DNA of 64,000 bases from Candidatus Sericytochromatia bacterium (GTDB lineage: Bacteria; Cyanobacteriota; Sericytochromatia; UBA7694): NCBI GenBank assembly GCA_018780035.1, contig JADMKE010000021.1, positions 27,844 to 91,843 on the forward strand, given 5' to 3'. The notes below the pieces were generated by a model, which had not been told where the DNA came from, searched no databases, and saw nothing but the letters and a program-made list of their open reading frames with translations. The translations under genes and the position numbers were made by a program. Shown piece after piece: positions 9,897 through 38,660 of the stretch; positions within the stretch are counted from its first letter, which is position 1, and every line of letters begins with the position of its first letter.

Positions 9897-10112
9897 AGCT
9901 GGATTTAAATGGCCCTGTATTTTTGGTCTTGTATTTGTTCTGGTAACGGAATTCTTGGTATTTTATCACATCTGTTTTGGTTAATTTTGTAGCGAAAACT
10001 TTACATAAGGGCCTGTCAGACTTTAGAATAAAGATTGGGTTAATTTTAAAAAACGTTCTGAAATCGTTTTTTATACCCTAATTTTTAGATTCATTTTTAA
10101 CCCATTGTATCT

Positions 10113-10126
10113 GCCCAGTTGGGCAT
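10113..10126. promoter_or_regulatory. 14-bp palindrome TGCCCAGTTGGGCA about 60 bp upstream of the degenerate-GGDEF gene
   Basis: Perfect 6-bp inverted arms (TGCCCA/TGGGCA) within the 270-bp AT-rich mutS/GGDEF divergent intergenic region. Confidence 0.3.
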
Positions 10127-10184
10127 AGTTAAGCCAGTTTCATAACCTCTATTCTGAATTAAAAAAGTGTATTTAAGACCCGCT

Positions 10185-11030: not shown

Positions 11031-11120
11031 ACAGCCCAAAGTCGCTACCAGGTGAAAGAGAAAGAATAGGCCACTTCTTGGCTATAATCACAGCAGAACA
11101 CAGACAAGGATAGCACCTAC

Positions 11121-21216: not shown

Positions 21217-23253
21217 TCATTCTTTTTGCAAAAACAGGGGAAAAGTCAGCAGATGTTGCTGTGCTGACTCCAGCGCAAATTGCTGAATATCATTCAAGAG
21301 TACAAAGGCAAAATTTTTCAAACGGGGCTCGGTGTAACGCTCAGCAAGCAGCAATAATTCTGATGCAAAATTTTCTAACTCATTCACAACCATCGATTGT
21401 TGAAGCACTTCCCAGCGTGGCAAGCACTCTTGTTTTAAAATCAAGATCAAATCCTTTTTGAGCGCCGTCTCTTGGCAGAGAAAGTCATTGAGCGGCTCTG
21501 TATCCGGTCTTTGCAGTTTTAAAATGGCCTGCAGACACGCCCACAACTCAACTTTACTGACAGGTTTACGCAGATAGCCATCAAACCCCATCTCCAAAAA
21601 ACTATTTTTTTCCTGCTGTAAAGAATATGCCGTCAGGGCAATGACGGGAATCGACGCTGTGAGAGGGTTGGACTTGAGCTGACGCAAAGCTTCTGTTCCA
21701 TCCATAACAGGCATACGAATATCCATCAAAATCAAATCGGGCTGACTTTGCAAGGCTTGCTCACAGGCTTCTTGGCCATTGTGTGCCAGCAAGATCTGAA
21801 AAGGCTGCTCTTCTAGGTAGGCCTGCAATAATTGAAGATTGGTAGGTTGGTCATCCACCAGCAATAAACAGGCTGGCGCAAAGTTCAAAAATAGCGTGTC
21901 TGAACGGGCTTCGGTGCTTGAACTGAGCGATGATTGGCGGATATCTGACAACAAAATCTGGAAAGAGGTCCCGACTCCCAGCTGGCTTTCAAGCAAAATC
22001 TGTCCCTGCATCAATTCCACCAATTGATAGGTGATCGCCAGCCCAAGTCCTGTCCCAGTTGAAGTCTGTTCAGAAGAGGGTTCTTGCTCAAAGGGTTGAA
22101 AAATGCGCGATTTAAAATGGTCCGAGATGCCAACCCCTGTATCACTCACGCTTAAGCTGAGTTGACCTGATTCCGCCGAAGTAGCTAAATAAGAAATTCG
22201 CAGTATAACAGAGCCTTTTGTGGTAAATTTAAGTGCGTTATTGAGTAAATTTATCAGTATCTGTCGCAGACGCAAGGGGTCCAAGCTGAGGGAAATGGGA
22301 AGATCTGGATCTGTTTGAACTTCAAATTTCAGCCCTTTTTCTGCAAACGATTTTCGCAACAAGAGATCGAGTTCCTGGACGAGTTGGCGCAGATCAATTG
22401 CGGTCGGTTTGATCTCAATTTTTCCGGCTTCAATTTTACTCAAATCCAAAATATCATCAATAATGTGCAACAGCGTTTTGCCACTGCTATTAATGGCCTG
22501 TAGATAGTTCTGCCAGCGGGGTTCATGTAATTGTTGCTGCATCAGCTCACTGAAACCCAAAATCGCATTCAAGGGGGTGCGAATTTCATGGCTCATGTGG
22601 GCCAAAAATCGGCTTTTGGCCTGACTGGCAAACTCGGCTTTTTGCCGCGCTTGGCGTTCCGTTTCCAATTGTTTTAATTCGCTGATATCACTCAAGATCA
22701 AGAGAAAAATCGGATCCCCGTGGCGGTTTGAAGAGAGCAGTGAACCATTGAGATACAACCATGTTGGTTGACCCTCTGTGAGGTGACGCAAGCGCAATTC
22801 ACAGGTCTGAGCTTGACCCGTTGAGAGGATATTTTTGCGGTGATGATAAAACACATCCTGGTCTTCTGGCAGAATAAAACGGAAAATGGGCTGTTTCAGA
22901 AGCTCCAATTGAGATAGATTCAAAAGCGCTGAGGCACTGAGATTGGCTTCCAAAATCAGTCCCTTTTGGCTCACAGAGAGATAACCCACAGGCGCCAAAT
23001 TATAGAGTTCATAATAACGACTTCGCGCGGCATCAAGTTCTAACTGTGTTCGGTGCAGTTCGTCATTCTGCATTTCAAGCTCAATCTGATGGACCAGCAA
23101 TTCATGAACGAGATGCTGAATATCATCCACCTCCATACCTTCCAGGTCTGTGGGATTCTGTGATTTTTTTTTCAGATAGAGTTCTTCCGCCAGTTTGCGC
23201 AATTGCAAAGAACTGTCGGGCATCGGATTTGTGCCTTTATCGGTATTTGTCAT
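21217..23253 (-). CDS. hybrid sensor histidine kinase/response regulator (coiled-coil/PAS - HisKA - HATPase - REC - C-terminal helical, possibly HPt)
   Basis: HisKA box HMSHEIRTPLNAILGF. Receiver domain LLLVDDQPTNLQLL...LILMDIRMPVMDG. Confidence 0.9.
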   Translation of the reverse strand: MTNTDKGTNPMPDSSLQLRKLAEELYLKKKSQNPTDLEGMEVDDIQHLVHELLVHQIELEMQNDELHRTQLELDAARSRYYELYNLAPVGYLSVSQKGLILEANLSASALLNLSQLELLKQPIFRFILPEDQDVFYHHRKNILSTGQAQTCELRLRHLTEGQPTWLYLNGSLLSSNRHGDPIFLLILSDISELKQLETERQARQKAEFASQAKSRFLAHMSHEIRTPLNAILGFSELMQQQLHEPRWQNYLQAINSSGKTLLHIIDDILDLSKIEAGKIEIKPTAIDLRQLVQELDLLLRKSFAEKGLKFEVQTDPDLPISLSLDPLRLRQILINLLNNALKFTTKGSVILRISYLATSAESGQLSLSVSDTGVGISDHFKSRIFQPFEQEPSSEQTSTGTGLGLAITYQLVELMQGQILLESQLGVGTSFQILLSDIRQSSLSSSTEARSDTLFLNFAPACLLLVDDQPTNLQLLQAYLEEQPFQILLAHNGQEACEQALQSQPDLILMDIRMPVMDGTEALRQLKSNPLTASIPVIALTAYSLQQEKNSFLEMGFDGYLRKPVSKVELWACLQAILKLQRPDTEPLNDFLCQETALKKDLILILKQECLPRWEVLQQSMVVNELENFASELLLLAERYTEPRLKNFAFVLLNDIQQFALESAQQHLLTFPLFLQKE

Positions 23254-26200
23254 TTACACGACCGGCTTCTGAGGCAAGATCTCTTCAATCGCCAGCAAAA
23301 TAGATGAGACCTGCCCTGTTTGGTTAACGATCCGGCGGGCATTGAGACTGAGCACCCGCAAGCCAATTTTTTTAAAGGCATGAGACAAAACATAATCTAG
23401 GCAAATCGGACTTTGAGACAAATACTGTTCAAACAGGACTCTCAAGGCCGGGATATCCCATTCTTGCTGCTCCAAATCAAAGATCAACTGCCCAATAATG
23501 GCTTCTGGTTCCAGCTCAAAAAAACGGCCAAATGCAGCGTTTGCTGAGCGAATCCGCAAATCGTCAGACAAAAGCAAAAGGGGTTGATGTGCCGTTGCCA
23601 TCATGGCATTGAAAGTCTGATTGATGGTGTCAGTTAAAGCAATCTGCGCCTGCTTGGCAGCTTCAATATCCACAAAGGTGATCACAGCACCTTCAATCAC
23701 ATTTTCCAACGTCCGATAGGGCAGAATATGCATGGCAAACCATTTTCCCGCTTTGCTCTGGACTTCAACATCAACAGGAATAAGCGTATCCAAAACCCGC
23801 TGAATATCTTGTGAGAGCTGATCATAGCCCACCAGATTGGAGACGATATGGGCCACAGGGCGCCCCATGTCGCTCTGAATCAGATTGATAATCCGGGTTG
23901 CGGCAGGCGTAAAGCGCAAAATATGAAGATCATGGTCAACAAAGACTGTGGCAATGCCTGTGCCGGCCAAGAGATTGTTCATATCGTTGTTGACACGGGA
24001 TAAATCTGTCACCTTGGTCTGCAATTCTGTGTTGATGGTGGCCAACTCCTCGTTGATGGATTGCAATTCCTCTTTGGCTGTTTCCAACTCTTCGTTGGTG
24101 GACTGCAACTCTTCGTTCATCGACTGCATCTCTTCATTGGAAGCTTTGAGTTCTTCATTGGCCGTTTCCAGCTCTTCATTGATGGTACTCAAAAAGGCTT
24201 CTTTGGCCTGCAACTCCTGTTTCAGTGCGTTAATTCGGGATTCAGAACCGCTGTCGGAACCCGTTCCCGATCCCGCTTCTGCCCTGGCCCCCCGCTCATC
24301 ACCTGCTTGGGGCAATAAGCCCTGGTGGTCGTTTTCAGCAGGCTTGGCCTGTTCGAGCAAAACCAAGAACAGCGTTTCCTCTCGCCCCTCACCCGGCCCC
24401 CACGTGAGTGGGTAGACCTTTAGGTCGGTTAGCGTATAATCGCCATTGGTTTTGACGCGTAACCCGTTACAATGCACGATTTCGACATGCTGAGAGGCCT
24501 TGTGCAAGGCCAATGTCAGATCCCGCCCCAGGCCTTCTCGGGCCATTTTGATGATATTGTTGACGCCCGCTTCCCCTTGGGCTGGCTCGAGGTAAGAACC
24601 TGTACGGCCATGCAAGTAGAGAATATCGCCATTTTTTTTCACAAGTGCAGCAGTTGGTACAGCGTTTTGCAAAAGCGCTTGTTCCGTCAATTCGCGCAGG
24701 GAGAGCTTTTCCTGTGAGCCTTTTTGGGGGTTCACAGGGGAAAAGCGCAGATCCAAGCTCAGGGCCGGTGAAACAAATTGTGTCAAACCCCGCTGGCGAG
24801 AATCGGGCTTGCGCCGATAGATTTTCTCTTTGCGATCTTCTGTGCTAAACAAAGCTTCGGTATCACCCACCGTCTCAGAGGTGCCCAAAAACAAATACCC
24901 TGTTGGGTTTAAAGCGTAGTGAAAGAGCGGAATTATTTTTTTTTGTAAGGCCGCCCCCATATAAATCAATAAATTGCGGCAGCTGATCAGATCCAATTTG
25001 GAAAAAGGCGGATCTTTAATCAGATCCTGTTCAGAAAAAATCAACCTATCGCGAATGGTCTTGTGAATGCGATAGCTGCTCTGCTCCTGCTCAGCAGATG
25101 GGGGCTCAAGCGAAAAGAAACGGGCCAGGCGCTCAGCGGAGAGACCGGCCGTATTGCTGAGAGGGTAGACCCCAGCTCGGGCCGTTGCAATGGCTGATTT
25201 ATCGATATCTGTGGCAAAAATTTGCACCTTTGGATTGTGTTTACTCAGCGCCTGCTGTTCGGCCAACAAAATAGCAAGCGAATACGCTTCTTCGCCGGTG
25301 GAACAAGCGGGCACCCAAACCCGAATCGTGCTCTGCTCAGATAGATTCGCAAAAAGCTGGGGTATCACCTTTTTTTCTAAGGCGAGAAAGGCCTCTGGAT
25401 CGCGAAAAAAATGGGTGACCCCAATCAAAAGATCGCGAAAGAGAGCGTTGATTTCGGCCGGCTCTGCTTGAGCGTAAACCACATATTCATCCAGGGTCTT
25501 GAGCTGATGCAGGGCCAAACGGCGTTCAATCCGACGATAGAGGGTATTGAGCTTGTATTGAGAAAAATCATGCCCGGTCTGGACAGATAAAAGTGAAAAA
25601 AGGGTGTTTAATCCTGGTTCAGGATCCGATTCTGAGTTCGATTCGGATCCTGGCAAAAAGCCTGTGTCGGACTCCTGAGAGGGTTTGGGTTCTTGTACGG
25701 GAAGAATTGGAGCAAGGCGAGTAAACGTCTTTTCAACATAAGCCATTAGCCGTTCTGGCATCTCTTTGGGCAGGAGTTCAAAGTCCACCAGCCCAGTGGC
25801 CAGTGCACTGCGGGGCATGCCATCGTATTCCGCAGAGCCCAATTCTTGTACCAGCACCCATCCGCCAGCTTCTTTGATGGCCCGCAAACCCACGGAGCCA
25901 TCCGAACCGGTGCCCGAAAGCACAATGCAAATCGCACGTTCATGCAACTCTCGCGCCAAAGATGAAAAAAAGAAATCGATCGGCAGGCGTTGGCCTCGGG
26001 GAGCAGCGGGTTCGGATAATTGCAAGCGCCCCTTGAGCAGGGCCATATCGCAATTGGGTGGAATGATATAAACACAATTTGGCTGGATCTCTAAGCCATC
26101 TGAGACCTCAAAGACCTGCATCTGGGTGTATTTCTGAATCAATTCAGCCAAGAGGCTTTGATGGTCGGGGGCCAGGTGTTGAACCAGAACAAAGGCCATG

Positions 26201-26376
26201 CCGGGTTCGCACTCCAGCGGCAAGCCCGAAAAAAAGGCCTCAAAGGCAGCCAGTCCGCCCGCAGAAGCGCCCAAGCCCACGACAGGAAAAGAAAGCGACA
26301 GAGCAGGGGAAAGATCCATTGGCATAACCCTATCATTTGTTTGAGAGGTCAAGTCAACGATGCCTGATCCTGTCAA
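23254..26376 (-). CDS. chemotaxis methylesterase CheB / methyltransferase CheR fusion with coiled-coil and PAS sensor domains
   Basis: CheB catalytic region (GASAGGLAAFEAFFSGLP...ICIVLSGTGSDGSVGL). CheR SAM motif (IRVWVPACSTGEEAYSLAILLAE). A heptad-like NEEL repeat coiled coil, then two PAS-like segments. The stop abuts the start of the histidine kinase. Confidence 0.9.
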   Translation of the reverse strand: MTGSGIVDLTSQTNDRVMPMDLSPALSLSFPVVGLGASAGGLAAFEAFFSGLPLECEPGMAFVLVQHLAPDHQSLLAELIQKYTQMQVFEVSDGLEIQPNCVYIIPPNCDMALLKGRLQLSEPAAPRGQRLPIDFFFSSLARELHERAICIVLSGTGSDGSVGLRAIKEAGGWVLVQELGSAEYDGMPRSALATGLVDFELLPKEMPERLMAYVEKTFTRLAPILPVQEPKPSQESDTGFLPGSESNSESDPEPGLNTLFSLLSVQTGHDFSQYKLNTLYRRIERRLALHQLKTLDEYVVYAQAEPAEINALFRDLLIGVTHFFRDPEAFLALEKKVIPQLFANLSEQSTIRVWVPACSTGEEAYSLAILLAEQQALSKHNPKVQIFATDIDKSAIATARAGVYPLSNTAGLSAERLARFFSLEPPSAEQEQSSYRIHKTIRDRLIFSEQDLIKDPPFSKLDLISCRNLLIYMGAALQKKIIPLFHYALNPTGYLFLGTSETVGDTEALFSTEDRKEKIYRRKPDSRQRGLTQFVSPALSLDLRFSPVNPQKGSQEKLSLRELTEQALLQNAVPTAALVKKNGDILYLHGRTGSYLEPAQGEAGVNNIIKMAREGLGRDLTLALHKASQHVEIVHCNGLRVKTNGDYTLTDLKVYPLTWGPGEGREETLFLVLLEQAKPAENDHQGLLPQAGDERGARAEAGSGTGSDSGSESRINALKQELQAKEAFLSTINEELETANEELKASNEEMQSMNEELQSTNEELETAKEELQSINEELATINTELQTKVTDLSRVNNDMNNLLAGTGIATVFVDHDLHILRFTPAATRIINLIQSDMGRPVAHIVSNLVGYDQLSQDIQRVLDTLIPVDVEVQSKAGKWFAMHILPYRTLENVIEGAVITFVDIEAAKQAQIALTDTINQTFNAMMATAHQPLLLLSDDLRIRSANAAFGRFFELEPEAIIGQLIFDLEQQEWDIPALRVLFEQYLSQSPICLDYVLSHAFKKIGLRVLSLNARRIVNQTGQVSSILLAIEEILPQKPVV

Positions 26377-26610
26377 GAGTCACAAAAAGCCCCGACTGGA
26401 TTTAAATGGATTCGGATGGATTCATAGAAATATGTCCAGTTACCTGCAAAGGTACCGTCCCAGTTTAACACACCCCAAAACGTTGCTCGCCGAGATATAA
26501 AACCAGCTACGGCAAAGAAGTGTGAGGGATTAAGTGACTCTCGCTGGCTAAGAATGCTACCATAGAGGTGCTTTCTGGGATCTTTTTAGAGAAAGGGAAC
26601 AACGTACTCA

Positions 26611-29106
26611 ATGAAAGCCGTACTCATGGCCGGAGGCTCCGGCACCCGACTCAGACCACTGACCTGCGATCTGCCCAAACCGATGGTGCCGATTGTCAAT
26701 AAACCGATTATCGAACATATTATCGACCTGCTTAAAAAACACAGTTATGACGATATTTATGTCACCCTTTATTATCTGCCCCACCTGATTCAAAATTATT
26801 TGCTCAACGGAGAAGAGCTGGGCGTGCGTGTCAATTACGCCCTCGAAGAGGAGCGCCCCCTGGGCACCGCCGGTTGCGTTAAAAATATCGAACAGCACCT
26901 CGACGACACTTTTTTGGTGATCAGCGGGGACTCCCTGACAGATTTTGATCTGAGCCAAGCCCTGAAGTTTCACAAAGAAAAAGGTTCCAAAGCCACGATT
27001 GTCTTAACCCGCGTTGAAAATCCGCTCGACTATGGCGTGGTCATCACCGACGAAGAGGGCCGGATTCAACGCTTTCTGGAAAAACCCACCAGCAGCGAGG
27101 TGTTTAGCGACACGATCAATACCGGCATTTATGTACTCGAACCCGAATTATTGGCCCTTTTGCCTGCCAACGAAGAGAAAGACTTTTCCAAAGATCTCTT
27201 CCCCTTGATTCTCGAAAAAGGCCTGCCGATGTACGGCTATGTCGCCGAGGGCTATTGGTGTGATATCGGCAATTTGACCACCTACCGCCAGGCCCATTAT
27301 GACGTGCTGGCTGGCAAGGTTCAGGTTGAGATGCCCTACCAACAGAAAGAAAATGGCGTTTGGATTGGTGAAGGTGTCGAAATGGAGAGCTCGGTGAGCC
27401 TCGAAGGCCCCGCCGTGATTGGGCACAATACCTATATCGGCAAAAATGTGCGCATCAGTGCCAATACCGTGCTGGGAGACAATGTGGTGGTTGGCCAAAA
27501 TGCCACACTCAAACGCCCCATTGTCTGGAATGGCGTGCATATCGACCGGGGCGCCTCCCTGCGCGGCTGCACCCTGGGCAAAAATGTGATCGTGCACAAA
27601 GAGGCCCAGATCCTGGAAGGGGCCGTGGTCGGCGACGACTGCTCCCTGGGTGAAAAAACCTTGGTCAAACCCGAAGTGCGCATCTGGCCCAATAAACATC
27701 TCGAACCCAACTCCATTGCCACCGAAAGCATTATCTGGGGGAGCGGTCAGCTCCAGAGTATCTTTGGCGAATTGGGCATTTCGGGCACCGTCAATACAGA
27801 TATTACCCCCGAATTGGCCGTCAAGATGGGGGCCGCTTATGGTGCCACCATTGGCATGGGCAAAAGTATCTCACTCAGTCGGGATCAATCTGCCGCCTCG
27901 CGCCTGTTCAGTCGCGCCTTTGCCTCGGGGGTGCTCTCAGTCGGTGTGCATATCCAAAACCTGGAAGCCTGCGCTTTGCCCGTGGCCCGCATTCAGATCC
28001 CCTCATTGGATGTCGCCGGGGGCGTACATGTGCGCTTGGCTGCAGATACCAGCCGTGAGAAAATCAGCATTGAATTTTTGGACTCATCGGGCCTGAATAT
28101 CTCCCCCCAGAGCGAGAAAAAAATCGAGGCCACTTACCAAAAAGAAGATTTCCGCCGGGCCCGCGTGGTCGAGTTGGGTGAAATTCAATACCCCTCCCGG
28201 ATTATTGAAAAATACCAGGAGGGCTTTGTTAAAACCCTCAGCCGCTTTAAACCCAGCCGCCCGATGAAAGTGGTACTGGACTATATGTTCCAGGCCAGCC
28301 ACGTCATTTTGCCCACCCTCTTGGGCCGCATGGGCATGGATACGGTGGTACTCAACGCCCACGTCGCCGAAGGGGCCCTGCGCAATTACGAAGAGCTGAC
28401 CCTGCAGACCTCCAATGTCGTTCGGGCCCTGAATGCCGACTTTGGTGTGCGCATGGATGCCAATGGCGAGCGCATGACCGTGGTCGACGAAAAGGGCGAG
28501 ACCATTGATCACAATCTGCTGATGGCAGCTTTTGTCAAAATGATGTTACACACCTTTCCAGGTAAAAAAGTGGCTGTCCCTGTGATGGCACCCAGCCTGA
28601 TCGAAGAGGTTGCCGCTCAGTTTGAAGGCCAGGTGATTCGCTCCAAAGCGACCACCCGCTCGTTAATGGAAGCAGCCCAGGAGCCCGATGTGATTCTGGC
28701 GGGCTTTGGCGGCCAATTGATCTTTCCGGCCTTTCATGGCGGCTTTGATGGCATGATGGCCGGAGCCACCCTGGCCACCTTGCTGGCATTGGACAATAAA
28801 AAGCTCTCGGAGGTCATTCAGGATCTGCCCCCGCTGCATATTCTCAGTGATCAACTGACTTGCCCGACCACGGTCAAAGGCACGTTGATGCGCCTGATGC
28901 TCGAAAAATATGGCCAGGAAAATATTTCCACCCTGGATGGCGTCAAACTCTTTGATGCTGAAGGCTGGACCTTGATTCTGCCCGATCCGAGTTATCCCAA
29001 AGTGCATATCTACAGCAATGGTTCGTCTCAGGAGTATTGTCAGACCCAATTGAACAAATACCGCGAAGACGTTCAACAGATGATCACCCACTCCAGTCAG
29101 ACCTAA
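26611..29106 (+). CDS. bifunctional mannose-1-phosphate guanylyltransferase / phosphomannomutase-phosphoglucomutase
   Basis: N-terminal NTP-transferase [18 protein letters not shown] plus left-handed beta-helix repeats. The C-terminal 400 aa has PGM/PMM architecture. Confidence 0.85.
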
Positions 29107-29112
29107 ACACCT

Positions 29113-29994
29113 GTGGAAGATCTGTTGCTGCAACTCCTGCCACTGGGCATTGGCGCTGCCATTTTTGTCAGCGTCCTCATGCTCATGCTGCTTTTTTCGG
29201 GCAATACCGAAAAAACCCTGAATGCACTCACTGGGCGTTATGCCCAAGCACTCAAGGTTGAGTTTGATCAGCTGCAATTGCCACTCAGCCCGAGTCAGTT
29301 CATCTTTTTTCAGACTGGACTGGCTCTGGCCTTGTTTGCAATTGGGGTCGTCACAGGCCCTGATGCTCTGACCAAGATTGCCATGGGCCTGCTCTTTGCC
29401 TATCTGGGTTTTTGGGGCTGTCGGCGCTGGCTCAAAGACCAACATGTGCGCCGCAAACGCAAATTTCAGGAGCAATTCGCCGATGCTGCAGCCCTGATTG
29501 GCAACACGGTGCGCTCGGGGCTGAGTTTGGTCCAGGCACTGGAAGTGGTGGTGCGCGAGATGGACGATCCGATGGCCTATGAACTGTATCAGGTGCTGCA
29601 GGCTACCCGTGTGGGTGCCCCCCTCGACTCAGTCCTGGAAGACTGGGCCGCACGCATGAACAATACCGATTTGGATATTTTTGTAACTGCCATTATTATC
29701 CAGCGCCAGACCGGAGGCGATTTGGCCCATGTGCTCAATACCCTCGCCCATACAGTTCGGCAACGCCAACGGATTCAAGGCCAGATCAGTGCACTGACAG
29801 CCCAAGGGCGTTTGGGAGCCATGGTCTTGGCAGGTCTGCCGGTTTTTATGGGGGTGATTCTCTATTTCCTCAATCCCGGCCGCATGAGCCTGATGGTCTC
29901 TCACCCAATTGGCTGGGGGATGCTCTTTGCCAGTGCCGCGACAATTATTGGCGGCATTGTGGTCGTGCAGAAAATTGTGGAGATTGATATATGA
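29113..29994 (+). CDS. type II secretion system F-family membrane protein (TadB-like)
   Basis: GTG start 6 nt after the upstream gene. T2SSF helical domain with flanking TM helices. Confidence 0.7.
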   Translation: MEDLLLQLLPLGIGAAIFVSVLMLMLLFSGNTEKTLNALTGRYAQALKVEFDQLQLPLSPSQFIFFQTGLALALFAIGVVTGPDALTKIAMGLLFAYLGFWGCRRWLKDQHVRRKRKFQEQFADAAALIGNTVRSGLSLVQALEVVVREMDDPMAYELYQVLQATRVGAPLDSVLEDWAARMNNTDLDIFVTAIIIQRQTGGDLAHVLNTLAHTVRQRQRIQGQISALTAQGRLGAMVLAGLPVFMGVILYFLNPGRMSLMVSHPIGWGMLFASAATIIGGIVVVQKIVEIDI

Positions 29995-30914
29995 CCTGGC
30001 TCATTTATGTCCTCTTTTTTCTGGCTGTGATGCTGGTAGTGCTGGCTTTTGCCAAGCCCCAGTCCAAAGAAGAGGCCTCGGCCCGTCTGCAATACCTCAA
30101 GGTCAAAAAAAATCTCGAGGAAGACAGCAAAGAAGGCCTAGAAAAAGCCCGCGCCATGGGACAGCAGTGGGCCTCTGAAAGCCACAGCCAATTGGCGCCC
30201 ATCGCCGCCCGTCTGATTCCCTCCAATCTGTATAAACTGATTCGCAGAAAGCTCGATTTGGCAGGCCTTTACACCACGACGGTTGAAATTTATGCCGTCA
30301 ATCAGTTGATCTACATGGCGGGACTGCCACTGGCATTTTTGGCCTTGAACCTGTTTTTGTTTAAATACCCGCTCAATACCGTTTTATATGCGGTGCCCGC
30401 TTTGCTGGCGATTGGCTATTATTTTCCAATTGTGCGCCTCAACACCCTGGTCGAAAACCGCCGCAGAGCGATGTTCCGCGCCTTTCCCGACTTTGTAGAT
30501 CTGATGACCATCTGCCTGGAAGCAGGTATGGGCATTGACGCCGCGCTGACGCTGATGATCAAAAAAGGCCAGCCGAGCCCGTTGCGCGACGAATTGAGCA
30601 AGACATTGCAAGAAATCCGCGTTGGCAAACCGCGTGTGCAGGCCCTCAAAGATCTGGCCAAACGGGTCGATATGAAAGAGATCACCTCTTTTGTTGTGGC
30701 CGTGGTTCAAGCCGAGCAAATTGGCGGAAACCTCAGCCAGACCCTCAAAATTCAGAGCGAAATCGCCCGCGATGCGCGCTGGCAAAAGGCCCAAGAACTG
30801 GCCCAGAAAGCGCCGATCAAATTGCTCTTCCCCATGCTGTTGCTGATTTTTCCGAATATATTCTTGATCATTTTTGGCCCGATTCTGCTGGGCTATATTA
30901 CCGGCAAACTTTAA
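29991..30914 (+). CDS. type II secretion system F-family membrane protein (TadC-like)
   Basis: 4-nt ATGA overlap with the TadB-like gene. A second T2SSF domain. Confidence 0.7.
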   Translation: MTWLIYVLFFLAVMLVVLAFAKPQSKEEASARLQYLKVKKNLEEDSKEGLEKARAMGQQWASESHSQLAPIAARLIPSNLYKLIRRKLDLAGLYTTTVEIYAVNQLIYMAGLPLAFLALNLFLFKYPLNTVLYAVPALLAIGYYFPIVRLNTLVENRRRAMFRAFPDFVDLMTICLEAGMGIDAALTLMIKKGQPSPLRDELSKTLQEIRVGKPRVQALKDLAKRVDMKEITSFVVAVVQAEQIGGNLSQTLKIQSEIARDARWQKAQELAQKAPIKLLFPMLLLIFPNIFLIIFGPILLGYITGKL

Positions 30915-30926
30915 GGGAGACGAACA

Positions 30927-32633
30927 ATGCACAGTCTCTCAGCGCATGATACCCTGAGACTCTGTTTGGCTTTGGCTTTGATGCTGGGTCTGGGCCGGAT
31001 TTTTGCAATTTTGAGCCAGCGCTTACAACAGCCCGCTGTCTTGGGGGAGATTGTGGCGGGCGTTGTCTTGGGGCCCACACTGCTGGGCGTGGTTTGGCCA
31101 GAAGCCTTTGGCTTTTTTTTCCCGCGCCAAGGCCCATTGGGACTGGCTTTAAGTGTGTTCACCAGCCTGAGCATTATCCTCTTTCTCTGTGTGGCGGGCA
31201 TGGAAGTGGATCTCAATACCGTTTGGAAACAGGGCAAACGGGCCTTGATTGTCGGCACCGGCGGCATGGTCTTTCCCTTTGTTTTGGGTTGGGGCAGTGT
31301 GTGGCTCTTTCCCAGTCTATTTGCAGCTGGCACCCCCAATTTACAGCTTTTCAGCATCTTTTTTGCCACAGCGCTGTCCATTTCTGCTTTGCCCGTGATC
31401 GCCAAAACCCTGATGGATCTGGCCCTGCTGCGCTCTGATTTGGGGGTGGTGATCATGGCTGCCGCGATTATGAATGATCTAATGGGTTGGATTATTTTTG
31501 CCCTTTTGATGGGGCAAATGCAAAGTGATGGTCACCATACCGCCACCCCCGGTCTGACCACGATTGTGATGATCTTGCTCTTTGCGGGTTTGATGCTCAC
31601 AGCCGGCCGTTGGGTCTTTAACAAGAGCTTGCTTTGGCTTTCGGCCCATACAGAGGGCCCCGGCCCCATTTTAAGTCTGGCAATCTGTGGGGCATTGCTC
31701 GGTGCCGCAGCCACCGAGGCCCTTGGCATTCATCCCATTTTTGGTTCTTTTTTGGTTGGAGTCGCATTGGGCAATTCAGCCCACCTGCTCGAACGCAACC
31801 GCCAAACCCTGGAACATTTTATTTCCTGTATCCTGGCGCCTCTATTTTTTGTCAGTATTGGGCTCAAAGTCAATTTTGTCGCTCATTTTGATTGGAAATT
31901 AACCTTGGTTGTGGTTGTGATTGCCTGTCTGGGCAAAATTGTCGGCTGCAGCCTGGCCGCTTGGTGGAGTGGCATGCAATTGCGGGAATCTTTGGCCGTC
32001 GGCTTTGGGCTGAATGCCCGAGGAGCAATGGAGATCATTCTCGGGCTGCTGGCCTTGGAGTCGGGGCTGATCAAAGAAAATATGTTTGTGGCTTTGGTGA
32101 TTATGGCTTTGCTGACCTCGATGCTCTCAGGGGGAATGATTCGCTGGATTCTGCAACAGCAACGCAAACTCACATTGGCAGATTATTTGGATTCCCGTGC
32201 CATTGTTTACCGCCTTGAAAGTGAAAACCACGAGAGCGCCATTGCGCAGCTCTGTCAACGTTTGGCTCAGATCAGTGGTTTGCCCGTGGCCCCTCTGCAA
32301 TCAGCGGTCTTGGATGAAGAATCGGTATTGTCGACCGGCCTGGGCTACGATATCGCAGTCCCCCACGCGGGGGTCAAAGGTTTGCCAGCTCCCCTGCTCG
32401 CAGTCGGTCTGTCTCCAACAGGTCTGAATTTTAACGCCCCAGATGGTCAAAAAGCCCACCTGATACTGCTTCTGCTCACCCCAGAGGAAGACAAAGTTTT
32501 GCAATTACAGCTCTTTACCGAGATTGGCCAGGTCTTTAACAAAGAAGAAGATCGCCAAGCCTTTTTGAAAATGGACAATTTCACCGAACTCAAGGCCTGG
32601 GTTCGGGGCCGCCTGCACAGCAATGGACATTAA
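30927..32633 (+). CDS. CPA2-family cation:proton antiporter fused to C-terminal PTS EIIA(type 2/Ntr) regulatory domain
   Basis: AAGGGAGA RBS. 12-13 TM Na_H_Exchanger core. The C-terminus DIAVPHAGVKGLPAPLLAVG...HLILLLL is PTS_EIIA_2-like with the phosphorylatable His. Confidence 0.8.
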   Translation: MHSLSAHDTLRLCLALALMLGLGRIFAILSQRLQQPAVLGEIVAGVVLGPTLLGVVWPEAFGFFFPRQGPLGLALSVFTSLSIILFLCVAGMEVDLNTVWKQGKRALIVGTGGMVFPFVLGWGSVWLFPSLFAAGTPNLQLFSIFFATALSISALPVIAKTLMDLALLRSDLGVVIMAAAIMNDLMGWIIFALLMGQMQSDGHHTATPGLTTIVMILLFAGLMLTAGRWVFNKSLLWLSAHTEGPGPILSLAICGALLGAAATEALGIHPIFGSFLVGVALGNSAHLLERNRQTLEHFISCILAPLFFVSIGLKVNFVAHFDWKLTLVVVVIACLGKIVGCSLAAWWSGMQLRESLAVGFGLNARGAMEIILGLLALESGLIKENMFVALVIMALLTSMLSGGMIRWILQQQRKLTLADYLDSRAIVYRLESENHESAIAQLCQRLAQISGLPVAPLQSAVLDEESVLSTGLGYDIAVPHAGVKGLPAPLLAVGLSPTGLNFNAPDGQKAHLILLLLTPEEDKVLQLQLFTEIGQVFNKEEDRQAFLKMDNFTELKAWVRGRLHSNGH

Positions 32634-33072
32634 ACCGCTCAGCGAGAGCAACACAACCATGCCCGCGCGCCAATGCTCCTGTCGCCCCGGTGAATTTTTA
32701 AACCTGCCTCAGCCGCTGTTTAGCATGGTCTGCCACTGTCAGACCTGCCAGGCTTTTTTTGGCAAGCCCTATACCGATGAATGTACATTTTGGTTTGGAG
32801 ACGTGGCGGGAATTTCTCTGGAGAACATGGAGTTTAAAGCATACCAGTCGCAGCTATCCCCCATTCGCCGTGGCACATGCCTGCTCTGTGGCAAAGTGAC
32901 CTGCTGTCTGGCCAAAGTGGGACCAATTGTGCTCTTTTTGATGGTGTCAAGCGATCAATTGAGGCAGGAAAACTGCCCAAAACCAGTCTCCCATATCTAT
33001 TACCACCGCCGATTGGCCAACGCAGCAGAATCAAGCCCGAAAGATCTCTGGCCATTTTTTCAGCCAGCTTGA
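32623..33072 (+). CDS. Cys-rich small protein, possible GFA/Mss4-like zinc-binding fold
   Basis: CSCRPGEF...CHCQTCQ...CLLCGKVTCC cysteine pattern. 11-nt overlap with the antiporter gene. Confidence 0.35.
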   Translation: MDIKPLSESNTTMPARQCSCRPGEFLNLPQPLFSMVCHCQTCQAFFGKPYTDECTFWFGDVAGISLENMEFKAYQSQLSPIRRGTCLLCGKVTCCLAKVGPIVLFLMVSSDQLRQENCPKPVSHIYYHRRLANAAESSPKDLWPFFQPA

Positions 33073-33158: not shown

Positions 33159-34514
33159 TCAGGGCTGCGGAGCCCCATAGACCACCCAGGTCGCAAAGGT
33201 CTCCGAAATCTTGAGCGAACGGGCCACGTAATTGCCAGGATAGGCCTTGACGTAGCGCAAAAAGGCCTGCAAATCTGTCTCGCCAATCACCATCATCACT
33301 TCAGACAGTGGCAAATTGGCATAAGGACCTTCGGTTGCCGGTGGAATAGCGCTGGCACGGGGCGCGCATTCGCGAATGGAATAAAGCGCCATTTCCATCG
33401 CCTGGGGATCGACAATCATTTTGCTCACGGTATAGCGGCTATTGGCATAACGCGAAAAGTCAAAGAGTGGCTGATCGTAATTATCCGTAAAGTCCACATT
33501 TAATTCATGTAAATCGACAAAGCTGACAGGGGTGTAATTTTGAACCGGTGGTGGAGGCTGTCCGGGCGGATAGGCAGGATCTCCGGGTGCCATAGGCTGC
33601 TGGCCATGCTGATAGGGCAAACTGACTGGGCTTTTGTGCCGCAATTGATCGAGCAAGCCTTTAAAAGCTTGGCCAAACGCCTCTTTGAGCTCTTTTTGAA
33701 CATGCTCTTGAATCTCAAGCACCATATCCGTGTAATAGGTAAGCTTTTGTGCCAGAAATTTGTATTTGGCGAGCAGCAGGCGAACATATTTTGCAATTGG
33801 CCCAAGCAAATCCAAGAGCGAATTACGGGGAATCAGGTGTTCAGGGGTATTGGAACCTGGGTGAACCGGGCGAAAGGTTTGACCTGTTTCTTCATATGGG
33901 GATTCCTCTGAATCTGTGGCAAAGAGCTGGCCTTCCCCCAACATCTGGCGGTAATAGTCCTCAGCCGTTTTGGGTTTGCGCTTGGGACGGGTGGTAGGCG
34001 GGGGCGCGTCATAAGGGTTGTAGTCAGAATGTGGATCCGCATAAGTTTGGTTGGAGCCATAATTCGGGTCGTAATAGCCCTGGTTGGGGTCTGCTGCGTA
34101 CTGCTGGTTGGGGTCATAATTCGGGTCGTAATAACCCTGGTTGGGGTCTGCTGCGTACTGCTGGTTGGGGTCATGGTATGTCTGGGACTGCGCTTGATAA
34201 GCCTGATTTTGGTCGTACATGCCTTCAGGGGCGACATAACCCGAGGCATCTTGCTGGTAATAGGGATTTTGCTGCTGGTGAGTTTGGCGCTGTTTGACCT
34301 CTTGCTGCCGGTCCAATGCCTCATCCGTCAGGGTCAGAGAACTGGTCACACGGTAAGATGTGACCCCTTCTCCCCTGGCACGTCGCTTTTTACGGTTGTT
34401 TTGCTTATCCACCCTTTTATTATAGCTTCTGAATTTACAGGATTTCCAGAAAGCATACAAAAAGGGGGTATACTGAAGCACATTTTTGAGGAGAAATCCC
34501 GATGGACTATGCAC
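33159..34514 (-). CDS. hypothetical protein with Q/N/Y/P-rich low-complexity N-terminal half (true start uncertain, probably internal)
   Basis: DPNQQYAADPNQGYYDPNY is duplicated. The C-terminal 250 aa are globular with no motif I recognise. The longest ORF would share its first 13 nt head-on with the divergent yjbR-like gene (its first codon lies at 34512..34514), so an internal start, for example the Met near 34220, is more likely. Confidence 0.5.
   Translation of the reverse strand: MHSPSGFLLKNVLQYTPFLYAFWKSCKFRSYNKRVDKQNNRKKRRARGEGVTSYRVTSSLTLTDEALDRQQEVKQRQTHQQQNPYYQQDASGYVAPEGMYDQNQAYQAQSQTYHDPNQQYAADPNQGYYDPNYDPNQQYAADPNQGYYDPNYGSNQTYADPHSDYNPYDAPPPTTRPKRKPKTAEDYYRQMLGEGQLFATDSEESPYEETGQTFRPVHPGSNTPEHLIPRNSLLDLLGPIAKYVRLLLAKYKFLAQKLTYYTDMVLEIQEHVQKELKEAFGQAFKGLLDQLRHKSPVSLPYQHGQQPMAPGDPAYPPGQPPPPVQNYTPVSFVDLHELNVDFTDNYDQPLFDFSRYANSRYTVSKMIVDPQAMEMALYSIRECAPRASAIPPATEGPYANLPLSEVMMVIGETDLQAFLRYVKAYPGNYVARSLKISETFATWVVYGAPQP
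34059..34172. repeat. two tandem 57-nt units (one mismatch) inside the Q/N-rich protein gene
   Basis: ataattcgggtcgtaata(g/a)ccctggttggggtctgctgcgtactgctggttggggtc appears twice back to back. Confidence 0.8.
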
Positions 34515-34930: not shown

Positions 34931-36343
34931 ATGAGCAATTTATCTTCTCCTTCCTTTGCAATTGCGATCATGGCCGCAGGCAAAGGCACGCGCATGAAGT
35001 CCGAAACCACCCCCAAAGTCCTACATACCTTGGCCGGCCGCAGCATGATTGGCCATGTTTTACACGCATCAATGGGTCTCGAACCCGAAAAAATTCACGT
35101 GATTGTCGGCCACTGTGCCGAACAGGTGCAAAACTTTGTCGAAACCAATGGCAGCCCAGAATTGCGCTCGCGTCTGGGTTGGGTCGAGCAAAAAGAGCAA
35201 TTGGGCACTGGCCACGCAATCATGCAACTCATGCCCGTACTCGAAAATTTCAAAGGCAGCTTGATGATCGTCAATGGCGATGTGCCCCTGCTGCGCAGCG
35301 AAACCTTGCAATTGCTGCGAGAAACCCACGAAGAGTTGGATTATGCTGCCACACTGCTCACAACCAAAGTCGCAGATCCCACAGGTTATGGCCGAATTGT
35401 CAGGCATCACCAGCAATTTGTTAAAATTGTCGAACACAAAGATGCCAATGCCAAAGAATTGCAAATTCAGGAGATCAACACAGGGGTCTACGTTTTTTCT
35501 TGGCCTGTGCTGCAGCAATACCTGCCCAAACTCAGCAATGCCAATGCCAAAGGCGAATATTATTTGACCGACGTGATCGAAATGCTGGTGCAAGATCGCA
35601 TGCGCATTGGCACAGTCACCGCCGAAAACCCCCTCGAAGTCTTGGGTGTCAACAGCCGCAAAGAATTGGCTGAAATGGAATGTATCTTACACAGGCGCAT
35701 CAACGACCATTGGATGGAAGCGGGGGTGACCCTGCGCGATCCCTCGTCGATTTATATCGATAGCCAGGTTGATTTAGCGGTCGATGTCGAAATTTTGCCA
35801 GGCACGATGCTGCAAGGCCGCACAAAGATTGGTTCAGGATCTCGAATTGGCCCCAATTGCCAGATTCGCAACAGCGCCATTGGTGAAGACTGCGAAATCC
35901 GTTTTTCGGTGATCGAACAAGCCCAAATCAAAGCTGGTGTCCAGATTGGCCCCTATGCCCATTTGCGCCCCGCAACCGTGGTCGAAAAAAATGCCAAAGT
36001 CGGCAATTTTGTGGAACTCAAAAAAGCCCATCTGGGTGAGAATTCCAAAGCCTCCCACCTGAGTTATCTGGGGGATGTCGAAATTGGCAAAAATTGCAAT
36101 ATTGGCGCAGGCACCATTACCTGCAATTACGATGGCGCTCAGAAGCACAAAATCACGATGGAAGAGGGCGTCTTTACAGGCAGCAATAGCACACTTGTGG
36201 CGCCTTTGAATTTTGGCAAAGACGCCTATGTGGCAGCCGGATCGGTGATCACCGAAGACCTGCCTGCAGGCAGTTTGGGCTTGGGCCGAAGCAGACAGGT
36301 CACCAAAGAGGGCTGGTCTGAGAGCCGGCGGCCGCGCAAATGA
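34931..36343 (+). CDS. glmU: bifunctional UDP-N-acetylglucosamine pyrophosphorylase / glucosamine-1-phosphate N-acetyltransferase
   Basis: AIMAAGKGTRMKS N-terminal nucleotidyltransferase, with a C-terminal hexapeptide-repeat acetyltransferase. Confidence 0.95.
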   Translation: MSNLSSPSFAIAIMAAGKGTRMKSETTPKVLHTLAGRSMIGHVLHASMGLEPEKIHVIVGHCAEQVQNFVETNGSPELRSRLGWVEQKEQLGTGHAIMQLMPVLENFKGSLMIVNGDVPLLRSETLQLLRETHEELDYAATLLTTKVADPTGYGRIVRHHQQFVKIVEHKDANAKELQIQEINTGVYVFSWPVLQQYLPKLSNANAKGEYYLTDVIEMLVQDRMRIGTVTAENPLEVLGVNSRKELAEMECILHRRINDHWMEAGVTLRDPSSIYIDSQVDLAVDVEILPGTMLQGRTKIGSGSRIGPNCQIRNSAIGEDCEIRFSVIEQAQIKAGVQIGPYAHLRPATVVEKNAKVGNFVELKKAHLGENSKASHLSYLGDVEIGKNCNIGAGTITCNYDGAQKHKITMEEGVFTGSNSTLVAPLNFGKDAYVAAGSVITEDLPAGSLGLGRSRQVTKEGWSESRRPRK

Positions 36344-36943: not shown

Positions 36944-37035
36944 ACGAAATAGGCCTTTTAGATTCTGCTGCAGAAACGCCAGAGCGGGTGCTAATATAGA
37001 ACCATGGATTGTTTGAAAGGATCGTCGCCTCCCTT

Positions 37036-38214
37036 ATGAAATTCAGTCAACTCAAAAAAACCGCATTGCTTTCGGCACTGATGGCCGCCTCTTTTGCCGC
37101 CGGGGTCACCCTTCAGCCCGTTTTAGCTGAATCTGGCGGTTTCCGCGTTTTTCTCGAAGTGTATGATTTGGTCAAAATGGAGTATGTCGAGAAAAAAGTA
37201 GACGACCAGAAATTGGTCAAAGGCGCGATCGATGGCATGTTAAGCATGTTGGACGATCCCTATACCCGCTATATCGCCCCTGACGAATTTAAACAGATGA
37301 ACGAAGAGCGCGAGGGCAGCTTCAGCGGCATTGGTATCCAAATTGGCACCCGCGACAATAAGCTGACCGTGATTGCCCCCATCGAAGATACCCCCGCATG
37401 GCGGGCCGGTCTTAAAGCCGGAGACTGGATCAAGGCGATTGATGGCAAAAATACCGAGACCATGGTCGTGGATGACGCCGTTAAATTGATTCGTGGCAAA
37501 GAGGGTACGGCAATCAAGCTCCTGATCTACCGCGAAGACAGCAAAAAGACCTTGGATATTTCCGTTACCCGCGGAAAAATCGAAAACAAAGTCGTTAAAT
37601 ACAAGATGATCAAAAACAATATTGGCTATCTGCGTTTAACGACATTTATGCAGAATAATTCCCCAGAAGAAATGAAAAATGCAATTAATGAGCTAAAAAA
37701 ACAGGGAATGTCGGCATTGATTTTTGATATTCGCAGCAATCCGGGCGGTCTCTTGCCCAATGCTGTAGATATTGGCAGCCTTTTTGTCAGCGAAGGACCG
37801 ATCGTGCGGATTGTCGATCGCGATGGCAAAGAAGAAAAACTCAATGCCAGCGGACGAATTGCCCTGGATAAAAACACCCCCATGGCTGTTTTGATCGATG
37901 GTGGCAGTGCCAGTGCCTCTGAAATTGTGGCCGGCACACTCAAAGACAATCAACGTGCTATTTTGATTGGCACACGCACCTTCGGCAAAGGTTTGGTTCA
38001 AACCGTACACAACCTCAGCAACGGCTCAGGGATTGCAATTACCACCAATAAGTACCTCACGACCAAAGGCACGGATATCAACAAAAAAGGCATTGATCCC
38101 GATGTCCTGGTGACCGTTCCCAAAGAAGTGCTCGACAAACCCTATTCTGAGAGCCTCGATGTACAATTGCAAAAAGCAATTGAATTGATGAGTGAACGGA
38201 TCGCCGCAAAATAA
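37036..38214 (+). CDS. ctpA: carboxyl-terminal processing protease (S41) with PDZ domain
   Basis: Signal peptide from the ATG at 37036. S41 Ser/Lys catalytic region ([12 protein letters not shown]...TFGKG). Confidence 0.9.
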
Positions 38215-38660
38215 TGCGTCTGGTGCTGCAAAGAGTCTCTTATGGTGCTGTGCGCGTCGAAGAACAACTCGTGGGAGAGGTCAAAGGCCCCGGATTGGTT
38301 TTATTGGTGGGCATAGGCCCCAACGATCACAGTGATGAATTGCGCTTTTGGGCTCAGAAATGTATCAATTTACGGGTATTTCCAGACGAGGAAGGCAAAA
38401 TGAACCGCTCCCTGCTGGAGATTGGCGGAGGGGTTTTGGCCGTTTCGCAATTTACGCTCTATGGCGATGCCCGCAAAGGCCGCCGCCCCGGTTTTTCAGG
38501 GGCAGCTCAACCTGAACTGGCCGCGCGGCTCTACGATGAATTTGTGGGCTATTTGCGCGAAACCGGCGTGCCCGTGGCCACCGGTATTTTTCAGGCCCAT
38601 ATGGACGTCGAAATCCACAACGATGGGCCCGTGACCCTCTTACTTGGCAGTGACTGTTAA
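38214..38660 (+). CDS. dtd: D-aminoacyl-tRNA deacylase
   Basis: MRLVLQRV...SQFTLYGD...NDGPVT match the Dtd motifs. The TAATG overlap is with the ctpA stop. Confidence 0.9.

What the first reader, a model, noticed from the sequence alone, without database searches (positions are those of the whole stretch)
26611..33072. Orphan TadB/TadC-like pair embedded between a GDP-mannose enzyme and a Kef-EIIA antiporter
Two T2SSF-family inner-membrane platform genes overlap each other by 4 nt and start 6 nt after the GMP/PMM gene. There is no adjacent CpaF/TadA ATPase, pilin, prepilin peptidase or secretin in the remaining about 35 kb. They are followed 12 nt later by the antiporter. Platform proteins without their ATPase are unusual. 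Linkage to nucleotide-sugar synthesis hints at a glycosylation or secretion role distinct from canonical Tad pili.
Basis: partly seen in the sequence, partly recalled or inferred. Interest (0 to 1): 0.55.

Follow-up and report, generated by a model that had tools for sequence, protein, structure and literature searches.

The report
Displaced TadB/TadC pilus platform pair
These are two ordinary, functional Tad-pilus membrane platform genes in a non-photosynthetic relative of cyanobacteria whose Tad genes are unusually scattered: close relatives carry the motor ATPase at another locus, so the pair is displaced, not ATPase-less.

Summary
Five same-strand genes lie at 26611-33072: a sugar-1-phosphate nucleotidylyltransferase/phosphohexomutase fusion, a TadB-like gene, a TadC-like gene, a CPA2 antiporter fused to an EIIA domain, and a small GFA-family gene. 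No T2SSE ATPase, secretin, prepilin peptidase or Flp-like pilin occurs anywhere in the 64 kb.

The organism is a Sericytochromatia/Blackallbacteria-type bacterium. Lacking an adjacent ATPase is unusual: in 25 of 25 unrelated TadB loci, CpaF lies directly upstream.

The pair is probably not orphan at genome level. In two relatives (TadB 87% and 65% identical), the same MAG has a TadZ-like::CpaF fusion ATPase at another locus. A small TPR gene precedes it and no tadB/C follows it.

Adjacency of the sugar enzyme to TadB is conserved down to 61% TadB identity. The antiporter adjacency is not. TadB and TadC are under strong purifying selection.

Most likely this is a rare multi-locus Tad system. 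A glycan-related role is not excluded but has no direct support. "GDP-mannose" specificity is unproven. Interest is modest.

The parts
26377..26610 (+). Intergenic region upstream of the operon, divergent from the CheB/CheR gene. It holds a likely promoter and a conserved AAGGGA-type ribosome-binding site just before the ATG.
   Evidence: The sequence AGAAAGGGAA precedes the start codon in the window, L003 and L006. The consensus promoter scan was uninformative. Promoter assignment is inferred only.
26611..29106 (+). Fusion enzyme of 831 aa: sugar-1-phosphate nucleotidylyltransferase with a left-handed beta-helix, joined to a phosphohexomutase (PGM/PMM domains I-III). It is the first gene of the operon. 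Sugar specificity (GDP-Man or UDP-Glc) is unsettled.
   Evidence: Pfam. NCBIfam best hits are below equivalog cut-offs (243 vs 440 bits; 240 vs 439). The best PDB hit is 8x7s, a UTP-glucose-1-P uridylyltransferase. Orthologues at 90, 76 and 67% identity sit upstream of TadB in L003-5, L006 and L176.
29113..29994 (+). TadB-like inner-membrane platform protein, 293 aa, GTG start 6 nt after the upstream stop codon, with no Shine-Dalgarno sequence of its own.
   Evidence: T2SSF at residues 128-251, E 3e-19. The start column is invariant M in 16 homologues. It is 41% identical to the TadB of a canonical secretin-CpaF-TadB-TadC locus, L007. The AF2 model (pLDDT 73) has a cytoplasmic domain matching EpsF/OutF/PilC with target TM-score 0.75-0.80. 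Hydropathy peaks indicate a polytopic membrane protein. dN/dS is 0.075 against the 87% orthologue.
29991..30914 (+). TadC-like inner-membrane platform protein, 307 aa, with an ATGA start/stop overlap with TadB.
   Evidence: T2SSF at residues 168-294, E 9e-20. It is a 29%-identical paralogue of TadB. The ATGA overlap is conserved in L003 and L006. dN/dS is 0.078.
30927..32633 (+). CPA2-family cation/proton antiporter fused to a PtsN-like PTS EIIA domain, 568 aa. It has its own GGGAGA ribosome-binding site. Its neighbourhood with TadC is specific to this strain.
   Evidence: Pfam and NCBIfam. It is absent downstream of TadC in L003-5, L006 and L176. It is present only in near-identical contigs L001 and L002.
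32623..33072 (+). GFA-family (glutathione-dependent formaldehyde-activating-like) small protein, 149 aa, last gene of the same-strand run.
   Evidence: Pfam PF04828, E 7e-7. The next gene, 33159-34514, is convergent.

Best explanation
The two genes encode the TadB/TadC inner-membrane platform of a Tad (type IVc) pilus-type machine, in a Sericytochromatia/Blackallbacteria lineage where the normally single tad locus has broken into separate loci.

The hexameric motor they dock is most likely the TadZ-like::CpaF fusion ATPase. In close relatives this is encoded elsewhere, always just downstream of a ~210-250-aa TPR protein and never followed by tadB/C.

Here the pair is transcribed from the promoter of the upstream nucleotide-sugar gene. 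The 6-nt gap and missing ribosome-binding site suggest translational coupling. The pair therefore rides on that gene's expression.

Shown: gene identities, locus structure, conservation of the sugar-gene/TadB adjacency, purifying selection, and presence of a tadB/C-less CpaF in the same MAGs as orthologous triads.

Inferred: that this CpaF is the partner, that the window's own genome has one, that a Flp-type pilus is built, and co-transcription.
For: - Domain and fold identity as platform proteins.
- 41% identity to the TadB of a canonical secretin-TadZ::CpaF-TadB-TadC locus in another Sericytochromatia MAG.
- Same-genome co-occurrence, case 1: in GCA_053550095.1 the triad is on JBMQPV010000011.1 and the TPR-CpaF module is on JBMQPV010000010.1.
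- Same-genome co-occurrence, case 2: TadB P0002 and CpaF P0259 each carry three NCBI accessions with matching prefix series. This is consistent with both being in each of the three Blackallbacteria CG MAGs.
- In four lineages (L011, L092, L093/L094, L095) this CpaF clade is preceded by a TPR gene and lacks adjacent tadB/C.
- Divergence is similar for the two sets: TadB 65% for window vs L006, and CpaF 69% for L095 vs P0189.
- dN/dS is 0.06-0.08 with dS above 1, so the genes are maintained.
- Scattered Tad systems are acknowledged as rare but real (PMC6668835).
Against: - The window's own genome could not be searched, so its CpaF is inferred from relatives.
- No Flp pilin, TadV peptidase or secretin was found in any fetched locus of this clade. 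A complete Tad machine is therefore not demonstrated.
- The sugar-gene/TadB adjacency outlasts even the TadB-TadC adjacency in L176. That is more than a purely accidental neighbourhood would predict.
- Only a few independent lineages could be sampled.
Confidence: 0.7

Rival explanations
1. The TadB(/TadC) platform has been functionally coupled to nucleotide-sugar supply. Possible forms are a glycosylated pilin or filament, or Tad-type export of a glycoconjugate. The operon link would then be selected, not inherited by chance.
For: - Adjacency of the sugar enzyme and TadB is kept in four lineages down to 61% TadB and 67% enzyme identity, while all other flanks change.
- In L176 TadC has left the locus but the sugar gene-TadB pair remains.
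- A 44% relative (L009) again lacks an ATPase and sits beside a Wzx-like flippase and a YfhO glycosyltransferase-like gene.
- 0 of 25 generic TadB loci show such a link.
Against: - TadB and TadC have standard length, a single T2SSF domain and no extra domain.
- A dedicated CpaF exists elsewhere.
- From general knowledge, the 830-aa fusion enzyme looks like the general housekeeping type of cyanobacteria, so its neighbour may simply borrow a constitutive promoter.
- The sample is four lineages of one clade, and adjacency could be plain vertical inheritance.
- Closer to the root (49% and 41% relatives) the link is absent.
Confidence: 0.13
2. The pair serves a different ATPase than the TadZ::CpaF fusion. 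One candidate is the PilB-like (MshEN+T2SSE) ATPase that lies divergently next to TPR-CpaF in some relatives. Another is a second, unseen tad locus, which would make this an accessory or alternative platform.
For: - A PilB-like gene is adjacent to TPR-CpaF in L092 and L095.
- Other CpaF types (438 aa, unfused) exist in some Sericytochromatia (P0193).
- Partner assignment here rests on co-occurrence only.
Against: - From established knowledge, T4aP PilB works with the two-domain PilC, not with TadB/C.
- 25/25 control loci pair TadB with CpaF.
- The tadB/C-less CpaF and the CpaF-less tadB/C are complementary within the same MAGs.
Confidence: 0.1
3. The pair is a decaying remnant of a lost tad locus with no current function.
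For: No partner genes are present in 64 kb. TadC is absent next to TadB in L176 and L177.
Against: - Intact full-length ORFs occur in all lineages.
- dN/dS is 0.075 (TadB) and 0.078 (TadC) at dS above 1.
- 90 invariant columns among 16 homologues.
- The ATGA coupling is conserved.
Confidence: 0.03

Closest known systems
Tad / Flp (type IVc) pilus system: TadB-TadC platform with TadA/CpaF ATPase (Aggregatibacter tad, Caulobacter cpa, Pseudomonas rcp-tad loci)
   Same: - Two adjacent ~300-aa paralogues, each with one T2SSF domain, and start/stop coupling.
- An EpsF/PilC-like cytoplasmic helical domain and a polytopic membrane topology.
- A CpaF-family ATPase, fused to a TadZ/CpaE-like ParA domain, is present in the same genomes of relatives.
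   Different: - The genes are split over at least two loci (sugar gene-TadB-TadC, and TPR-TadZ::CpaF) instead of one operon.
- No pilin, TadV, RcpA or RcpC has been located.
- The pair lies in an operon headed by a nucleotide-sugar enzyme.
Type IVa pilus systems, which are multi-locus and vertically inherited (PilB/PilC/PilM-Q)
   Same: A dispersed genomic organisation of a type IV filament machine, with apparently vertical inheritance within a lineage.
   Different: The T4aP platform PilC is a single ~400-aa protein with two T2SSF domains, and its ATPase is PilB with an MshEN/GSPII N-domain. Here the components are TadB/C- and CpaF-type.
Canonical tad-like locus of other Sericytochromatia (L007: secretin - TadZ::CpaF - Uma2 - TadB - TadC - DUF192)
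   Same: Same phylum-level group, same TadZ::CpaF fusion architecture, and the same TadB-then-TadC order. Identity is 41% for TadB and 34% for TadC.
   Different: There everything is contiguous and a secretin is present. In the window's clade the ATPase has moved away and a sugar-nucleotide gene sits in its place.
Cyanobacterial NTP-transferase family enzymes: the GDP-mannose pyrophosphorylase/PMM fusion type and the CugP-type UDP-glucose pyrophosphorylase (named from my own knowledge)
   Same: An NTP_transferase + LbH domain joined to PGM/PMM I-III domains. The best PDB match is a UTP-glucose-1-P uridylyltransferase (8x7s).
   Different: Specificity is untested, and scores are below the NCBIfam equivalog cut-offs.

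Membership tests
TadB/TadC platform proteins of Tad (type IVc) pili | A single T2SSF (PF00482) domain in a ~290-330-aa protein | tested here: met
   293 aa with T2SSF at 128-251 (69.6 bits, cut-off 25.2); 307 aa with T2SSF at 168-294 (71.4 bits).
TadB/TadC platform proteins of Tad (type IVc) pili | Two adjacent paralogous genes (tadB then tadC), co-oriented and usually coupled | tested here: met
   A 4-nt ATGA overlap, conserved in L003 and L006. The two proteins are 29% identical over 104 aa.
TadB/TadC platform proteins of Tad (type IVc) pili | Polytopic inner-membrane topology with a cytoplasmic helical bundle of the EpsF/PilC type | tested here: met
   Hydropathy peaks lie at the N-terminus, the middle and the C-terminus. 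The AF2 model is all-helical with pLDDT 73. Foldseek hits to EpsF, OutF, PilC and TcpE cytoplasmic domains have prob 1.00, target TM-score 0.75-0.80 and rmsd 2.4 A. TadC was not modelled.
TadB/TadC platform proteins of Tad (type IVc) pili | Sequence relatives sit in bona fide tad loci next to CpaF/TadA | tested here: met
   L007 is secretin-TadZ::CpaF-TadB-TadC at 41% identity. 25/25 loci of 30-37% relatives have CpaF upstream.
Tad (type IVc) pilus system as a whole | CpaF/TadA ATPase encoded next to tadB/tadC | tested here: not met
   No T2SSE-domain protein in the 64-kb window, nor within 10 kb in L003-L006 and L176.
Tad (type IVc) pilus system as a whole | CpaF/TadA ATPase present somewhere in the genome | tested here: inconclusive
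   Met for relatives: GCA_053550095.1 and the three Blackallbacteria CG MAGs. The window's own genome could not be searched.
Tad (type IVc) pilus system as a whole | Flp-type pilin and a dedicated TadV/CpaA prepilin peptidase | tested here: inconclusive
   None in the window or in any fetched Sericytochromatia locus, by Pfam and by a G-x4-E-Y/F motif scan (and the locus tables). Genome-wide absence is not testable with these tools.
Tad (type IVc) pilus system as a whole | RcpA/CpaC secretin and RcpC/CpaB (in diderms) | not testable with these tools
   Absent from the window. A secretin is present in the canonical L007 locus of a more distant relative. The whole genome is unavailable.
GspF / PilC platform (T2SS, T4aP) | One ~400-aa protein with two T2SSF domains | tested here: not met
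   One domain per protein. NCBIfam GspF, HofC and XpsF hits score only 17-19 bits against cut-offs of 400-650.
Bifunctional mannose-1-phosphate guanylyltransferase / phosphomannomutase | NTP_transferase + LbH fused to PGM_PMM domains I-III | tested here: met
Bifunctional mannose-1-phosphate guanylyltransferase / phosphomannomutase | Specificity for mannose-1-P/GTP (score above equivalog cut-off, or closest to characterised GMPPs) | tested here: inconclusive
   man1P_GTase_Rv scores 243 bits against a cut-off of 440. PDB 8x7s, a UTP-glucose-1-P uridylyltransferase, scores 233 bits against 166 bits for GMPPs.
Kef-type glutathione-gated K+ efflux systems | CPA2 membrane domain plus a C-terminal KTN/RCK (TrkA_N) regulatory domain | tested here: not met
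   The CPA2 domain is present (Na_H_Exchanger 193 bits; TIGR00932 scores 144 against a cut-off of 238). The C-terminal domain is PTS_EIIA_2, not KTN.

The most novel reading that the evidence does not exclude
In this Sericytochromatia clade a minimal Tad motor (TadZ::CpaF + TadB ± TadC) has been uncoupled from the classical tad locus. Its platform gene has been wired into an operon with a nucleotide-sugar synthase because the machine assembles or exports a glycosylated product, such as a glycosylated filament or surface glycoconjugate, and not a plain Flp pilus. This would explain why the sugar gene-TadB adjacency is kept even where TadC has moved away, and why no Flp pilin, TadV or secretin is found nearby.
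Probability: 0.12. Interest if true: 0.6.

Novelty: new member of a known kind. Interest (0 to 1): 0.3.

Why it matters
Tad pilus genes are textbook single-locus, horizontally mobile modules. A lineage of non-photosynthetic cyanobacterial relatives in which they are stably scattered is a natural test of an idea from Denise et al. 2019: that single-locus organisation goes with transfer and multi-locus organisation with long-term vertical residence.

Practically, it warns annotators and locus-based detectors (MacSyFinder/TXSScan-type models) that Tad systems in Sericytochromatia will be missed or called incomplete. It also shows that the Blackallbacteria CpaF is mis-annotated as a 508-aa fragment.

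If the sugar-gene linkage were functional, it would point to glycosylated Tad filaments in this group. That is not shown.

Tried and rejected
1. Genome-contig scan with the Sericytochromatia CpaF.

2. Metagenome-contig scan with a TadB-clade alignment. It was swamped through the universal IQRQTGGD motif and returned only 30-42% relatives. I reused these as the control set.

3. The listing of cluster members on ten CpaF hits gave no accessions to tie them to genomes.

4. Sequence search of TadB and TadC against the PDB gave no hits. The fold search worked instead.

5. The promoter/terminator consensus scan showed no convincing internal terminator or promoter and was not informative.

6. The Flp and type IVa pilin motif scan gave only one spurious antisense hit.

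7. Literature searches found nothing on Tad pili in Sericytochromatia, on orphan tadB/C, on sll1496, or on Flp glycosylation.

8. The pseudogene/remnant idea was rejected on dN/dS.

9. Functional linkage to the antiporter was rejected because it is not conserved beyond near-identical contigs.


Full report
**What is there**

The region 26611-33072 holds five co-oriented, tightly packed ORFs.
- 26611-29106 is an 831-aa fusion of an NTP_transferase/left-handed beta-helix domain with phosphohexomutase domains I-III.
- 29113-29994 (293 aa) and 29991-30914 (307 aa) each carry one full-length T2SSF domain (E 3e-19 and 9e-20).
- 30927-32633 is a CPA2 Na+/H+-exchanger-type transporter with a C-terminal PTS EIIA-2 domain.
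- 32623-33072 is a separate GFA-family protein.

The gaps are 6 nt, a 4-nt ATGA overlap, 12 nt and an 11-nt overlap. The GTG start at 29113 is supported by an invariant first column in 16 homologues. The first gene has an AAGGGA ribosome-binding site that is conserved in relatives. TadB has none, which suggests translational coupling (inference).

**Rest of the window**

I Pfam-scanned all 51 ORFs of 70 aa or more that a greedy non-overlapping selection chose. There is no T2SSE ATPase, secretin, A24 peptidase, RcpC or Flp. A motif scan of small ORFs found no Flp-like or type IVa pilin.

**Organism**

The closest TadB homologues are labelled Candidatus Blackallbacteria (87% identity), Candidatus Sericytochromatia (65%) or Obscuribacterales. 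NCBI lists three Blackallbacteria MAGs, and places Sericytochromatia in the Cyanobacteriota/Melainabacteria group. Near-identical contigs occur in Logan assemblies SRR12964613 and SRR12964611.

**Is it unusual?**

Yes. Among the generic TadB loci returned by a metagenome scan (30-42% identity to the window's TadB), 25 had at least 3.5 kb of upstream sequence. All 25 have CpaF directly upstream (gaps of 194-680 nt), and none has the sugar enzyme. [quoted passage not shown]

**Synteny of the TadB clade**

| Locus | TadB identity | Arrangement |
|---|---|---|
| Window, L001/L002 | 100% | sugar gene-TadB-TadC-antiporter-GFA |
| Blackallbacteria CG MAGs and others (L003-L005) | 87% | sugar gene-TadB-TadC, then unrelated genes |
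| GCA_053550095.1 (L006) | 65% | same triad, all flanks different |
| L176 | 61% | sugar gene-TadB only; TadC is gone and the next gene is on the other strand |
| L177 | 49% | TPR gene-TadB-unknown gene |
| L009 | 44% | radical-SAM gene-TadB-TadC-Wzx-like flippase, with YfhO nearby and again no ATPase |
| L007/L008/L010 | 41% | canonical secretin-TadZ::CpaF-Uma2-TadB-TadC-DUF192 |

The sugar-gene adjacency is therefore conserved within the 61-100% clade. The antiporter adjacency is strain-specific. The lineage shows stepwise break-up of an originally contiguous tad locus.

**Where is the ATPase?**

I used the L007 TadZ::CpaF as a query and then P0189. This found a clade of ~750-aa TadZ-like::CpaF fusions, 65-81% identical to one another.

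P0189 lies in the same assembly as the L006 triad but on another contig. There it is preceded by a 213-aa TPR protein and followed by Usp, NfeD and other genes, with no tadB/C, secretin or pilin within 10 kb.

The same TPR-CpaF module without tadB/C recurs in L092, L093/L094 and the Blackallbacteria contig L095. In L095, NCBI calls a 508-aa protein, but the ORF 9251-11527 is 758 aa and aligns to P0189 end to end. A 758-aa gene call also exists in other sources.

TadB P0002 and CpaF P0259 each carry three NCBI accessions with matching prefix series. This is consistent with both being present in each of the three Blackallbacteria MAGs. So in two relatives of the window's organism, a CpaF that lacks tadB/C coexists with a tadB/C pair that lacks CpaF.

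**Are the genes functional?**

Against the 87% orthologues, dN/dS is 0.075 (TadB), 0.078 (TadC) and 0.056 (sugar enzyme), with dS above 1. There are 90 invariant columns among 16 TadB homologues.

An AlphaFold model of TadB (mean pLDDT 73) is all-helical. Its cytoplasmic domain superposes on EpsF, OutF, PilC and TcpE domains (prob 1.00, target TM-score 0.75-0.80, rmsd about 2.4 A). No extra domain is present.

**Interpretation**

The best explanation, at about 0.7 confidence, is an ordinary TadB/TadC platform belonging to a rare multi-locus Tad system. The TadZ::CpaF motor and a TPR protein are encoded elsewhere. The pair is expressed from the promoter of a nucleotide-sugar gene.

The qualifier is that the "elsewhere" locus is not a complete tad locus, and that pilin, peptidase and secretin remain unlocated.

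The reading that the sugar-gene link is functional (glycosylated filament or glycoconjugate export) is not excluded. The adjacency outlives the TadB-TadC adjacency in L176, and L009 is again next to glycan genes. However, it rests on four lineages of one clade and has no direct support. I give it about 0.12-0.13. A remnant or pseudogene reading is rejected.

**Corrections to labels**

"GDP-mannose enzyme" is unproven. The N-terminal domain scores 233 bits to PDB 8x7s (a UTP-glucose-1-phosphate uridylyltransferase) against 166 bits to Man-1-P guanylyltransferases. NCBIfam equivalog cut-offs are not reached. "Kef" is also loose, because the regulatory domain is EIIA and not KTN.

**Limits**

- The window's own genome could not be searched.
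- Both large-collection scans were swamped by conserved motifs.
- Co-transcription and the CpaF-TadB/C partnership are inferred.

Noticed in passing
window 30927-32633: A CPA2 cation/proton antiporter carries a C-terminal PtsN-like PTS EIIA-2 domain instead of the usual KTN/RCK domain. This suggests regulation by phosphotransfer or the nitrogen-PTS. An overlapping GFA-family gene follows at 32623-33072.
   Followed up: partly
L176:9883-10000: In the 61% relative, the 118-nt spacer between the sugar gene and TadB folds into a long, very stable hairpin (-47.5 kcal/mol, z = -5.4). It is absent from the window, whose spacer is 6 nt. It could be an inserted repeat element, an attenuator or a processing site.
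   Followed up: partly
L011:9352-12271, L092:2356-5323, L093:9303-12301, L095:8492-11527: A conserved two-gene module: a ~210-250-aa TPR protein abutting or overlapping a TadZ-like::CpaF fusion ATPase. In L092 and L095 a PilB-like (MshEN+T2SSE) ATPase lies divergently just upstream. The TPR protein matches only generic TPR models such as PilW/PrsT, all below cut-off.
   Followed up: partly
L095:9251-11527 (GCA_002783405.1 PFGG01000072.1): The Blackallbacteria CpaF is annotated in NCBI as a 508-aa 'type II secretion system protein E'. The uninterrupted ORF is 758 aa and includes the ParA/TadZ-like N-domain, so the NCBI start looks miscalled.
   Followed up: yes
L009:389-8214: A second ATPase-less TadB/TadC pair (44% identity) sits between a B12-binding radical-SAM gene and a Polysacc_synt (Wzx-like) flippase. 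YfhO and a polysaccharide deacetylase lie nearby. The taxon is unknown.
   Followed up: no
window 10167-11618 vs L095:4728-6164: The window's GGDEF-like gene and the following 165-aa gene are homologous (47% and 62%) to the two genes that, in the Blackallbacteria contig, directly precede PilB-like/TPR/CpaF. In the window they are followed instead by a kinase, a Wzy_C O-antigen-ligase-like gene and ABC sugar transporter genes. This may be a rearrangement breakpoint.
   Followed up: partly
window 21217-26376 (- strand): Divergent from the operon lie a 1040-aa CheB-methylesterase/CheR-methyltransferase/PAS fusion and a 678-aa PAS hybrid histidine kinase-receiver. They are conserved upstream in the 87% relatives but absent in L006 and L176.
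   Followed up: no
window 26611-27780: The nucleotidyltransferase domain is closer to a solved UTP-glucose-1-phosphate uridylyltransferase (8x7s, 233 bits) than to GDP-mannose pyrophosphorylases (166 bits). The common 'mannose-1-phosphate guanylyltransferase' label for this fusion family may therefore be wrong.
   Followed up: partly
window 37009-39819: Two paralogous S41 (CtpB-like, PDZ) peptidase genes flank a D-Tyr-tRNA deacylase gene. A second GlmU-like NTP-transferase/hexapeptide gene lies at 34931-36343, just downstream of the region.
   Followed up: no
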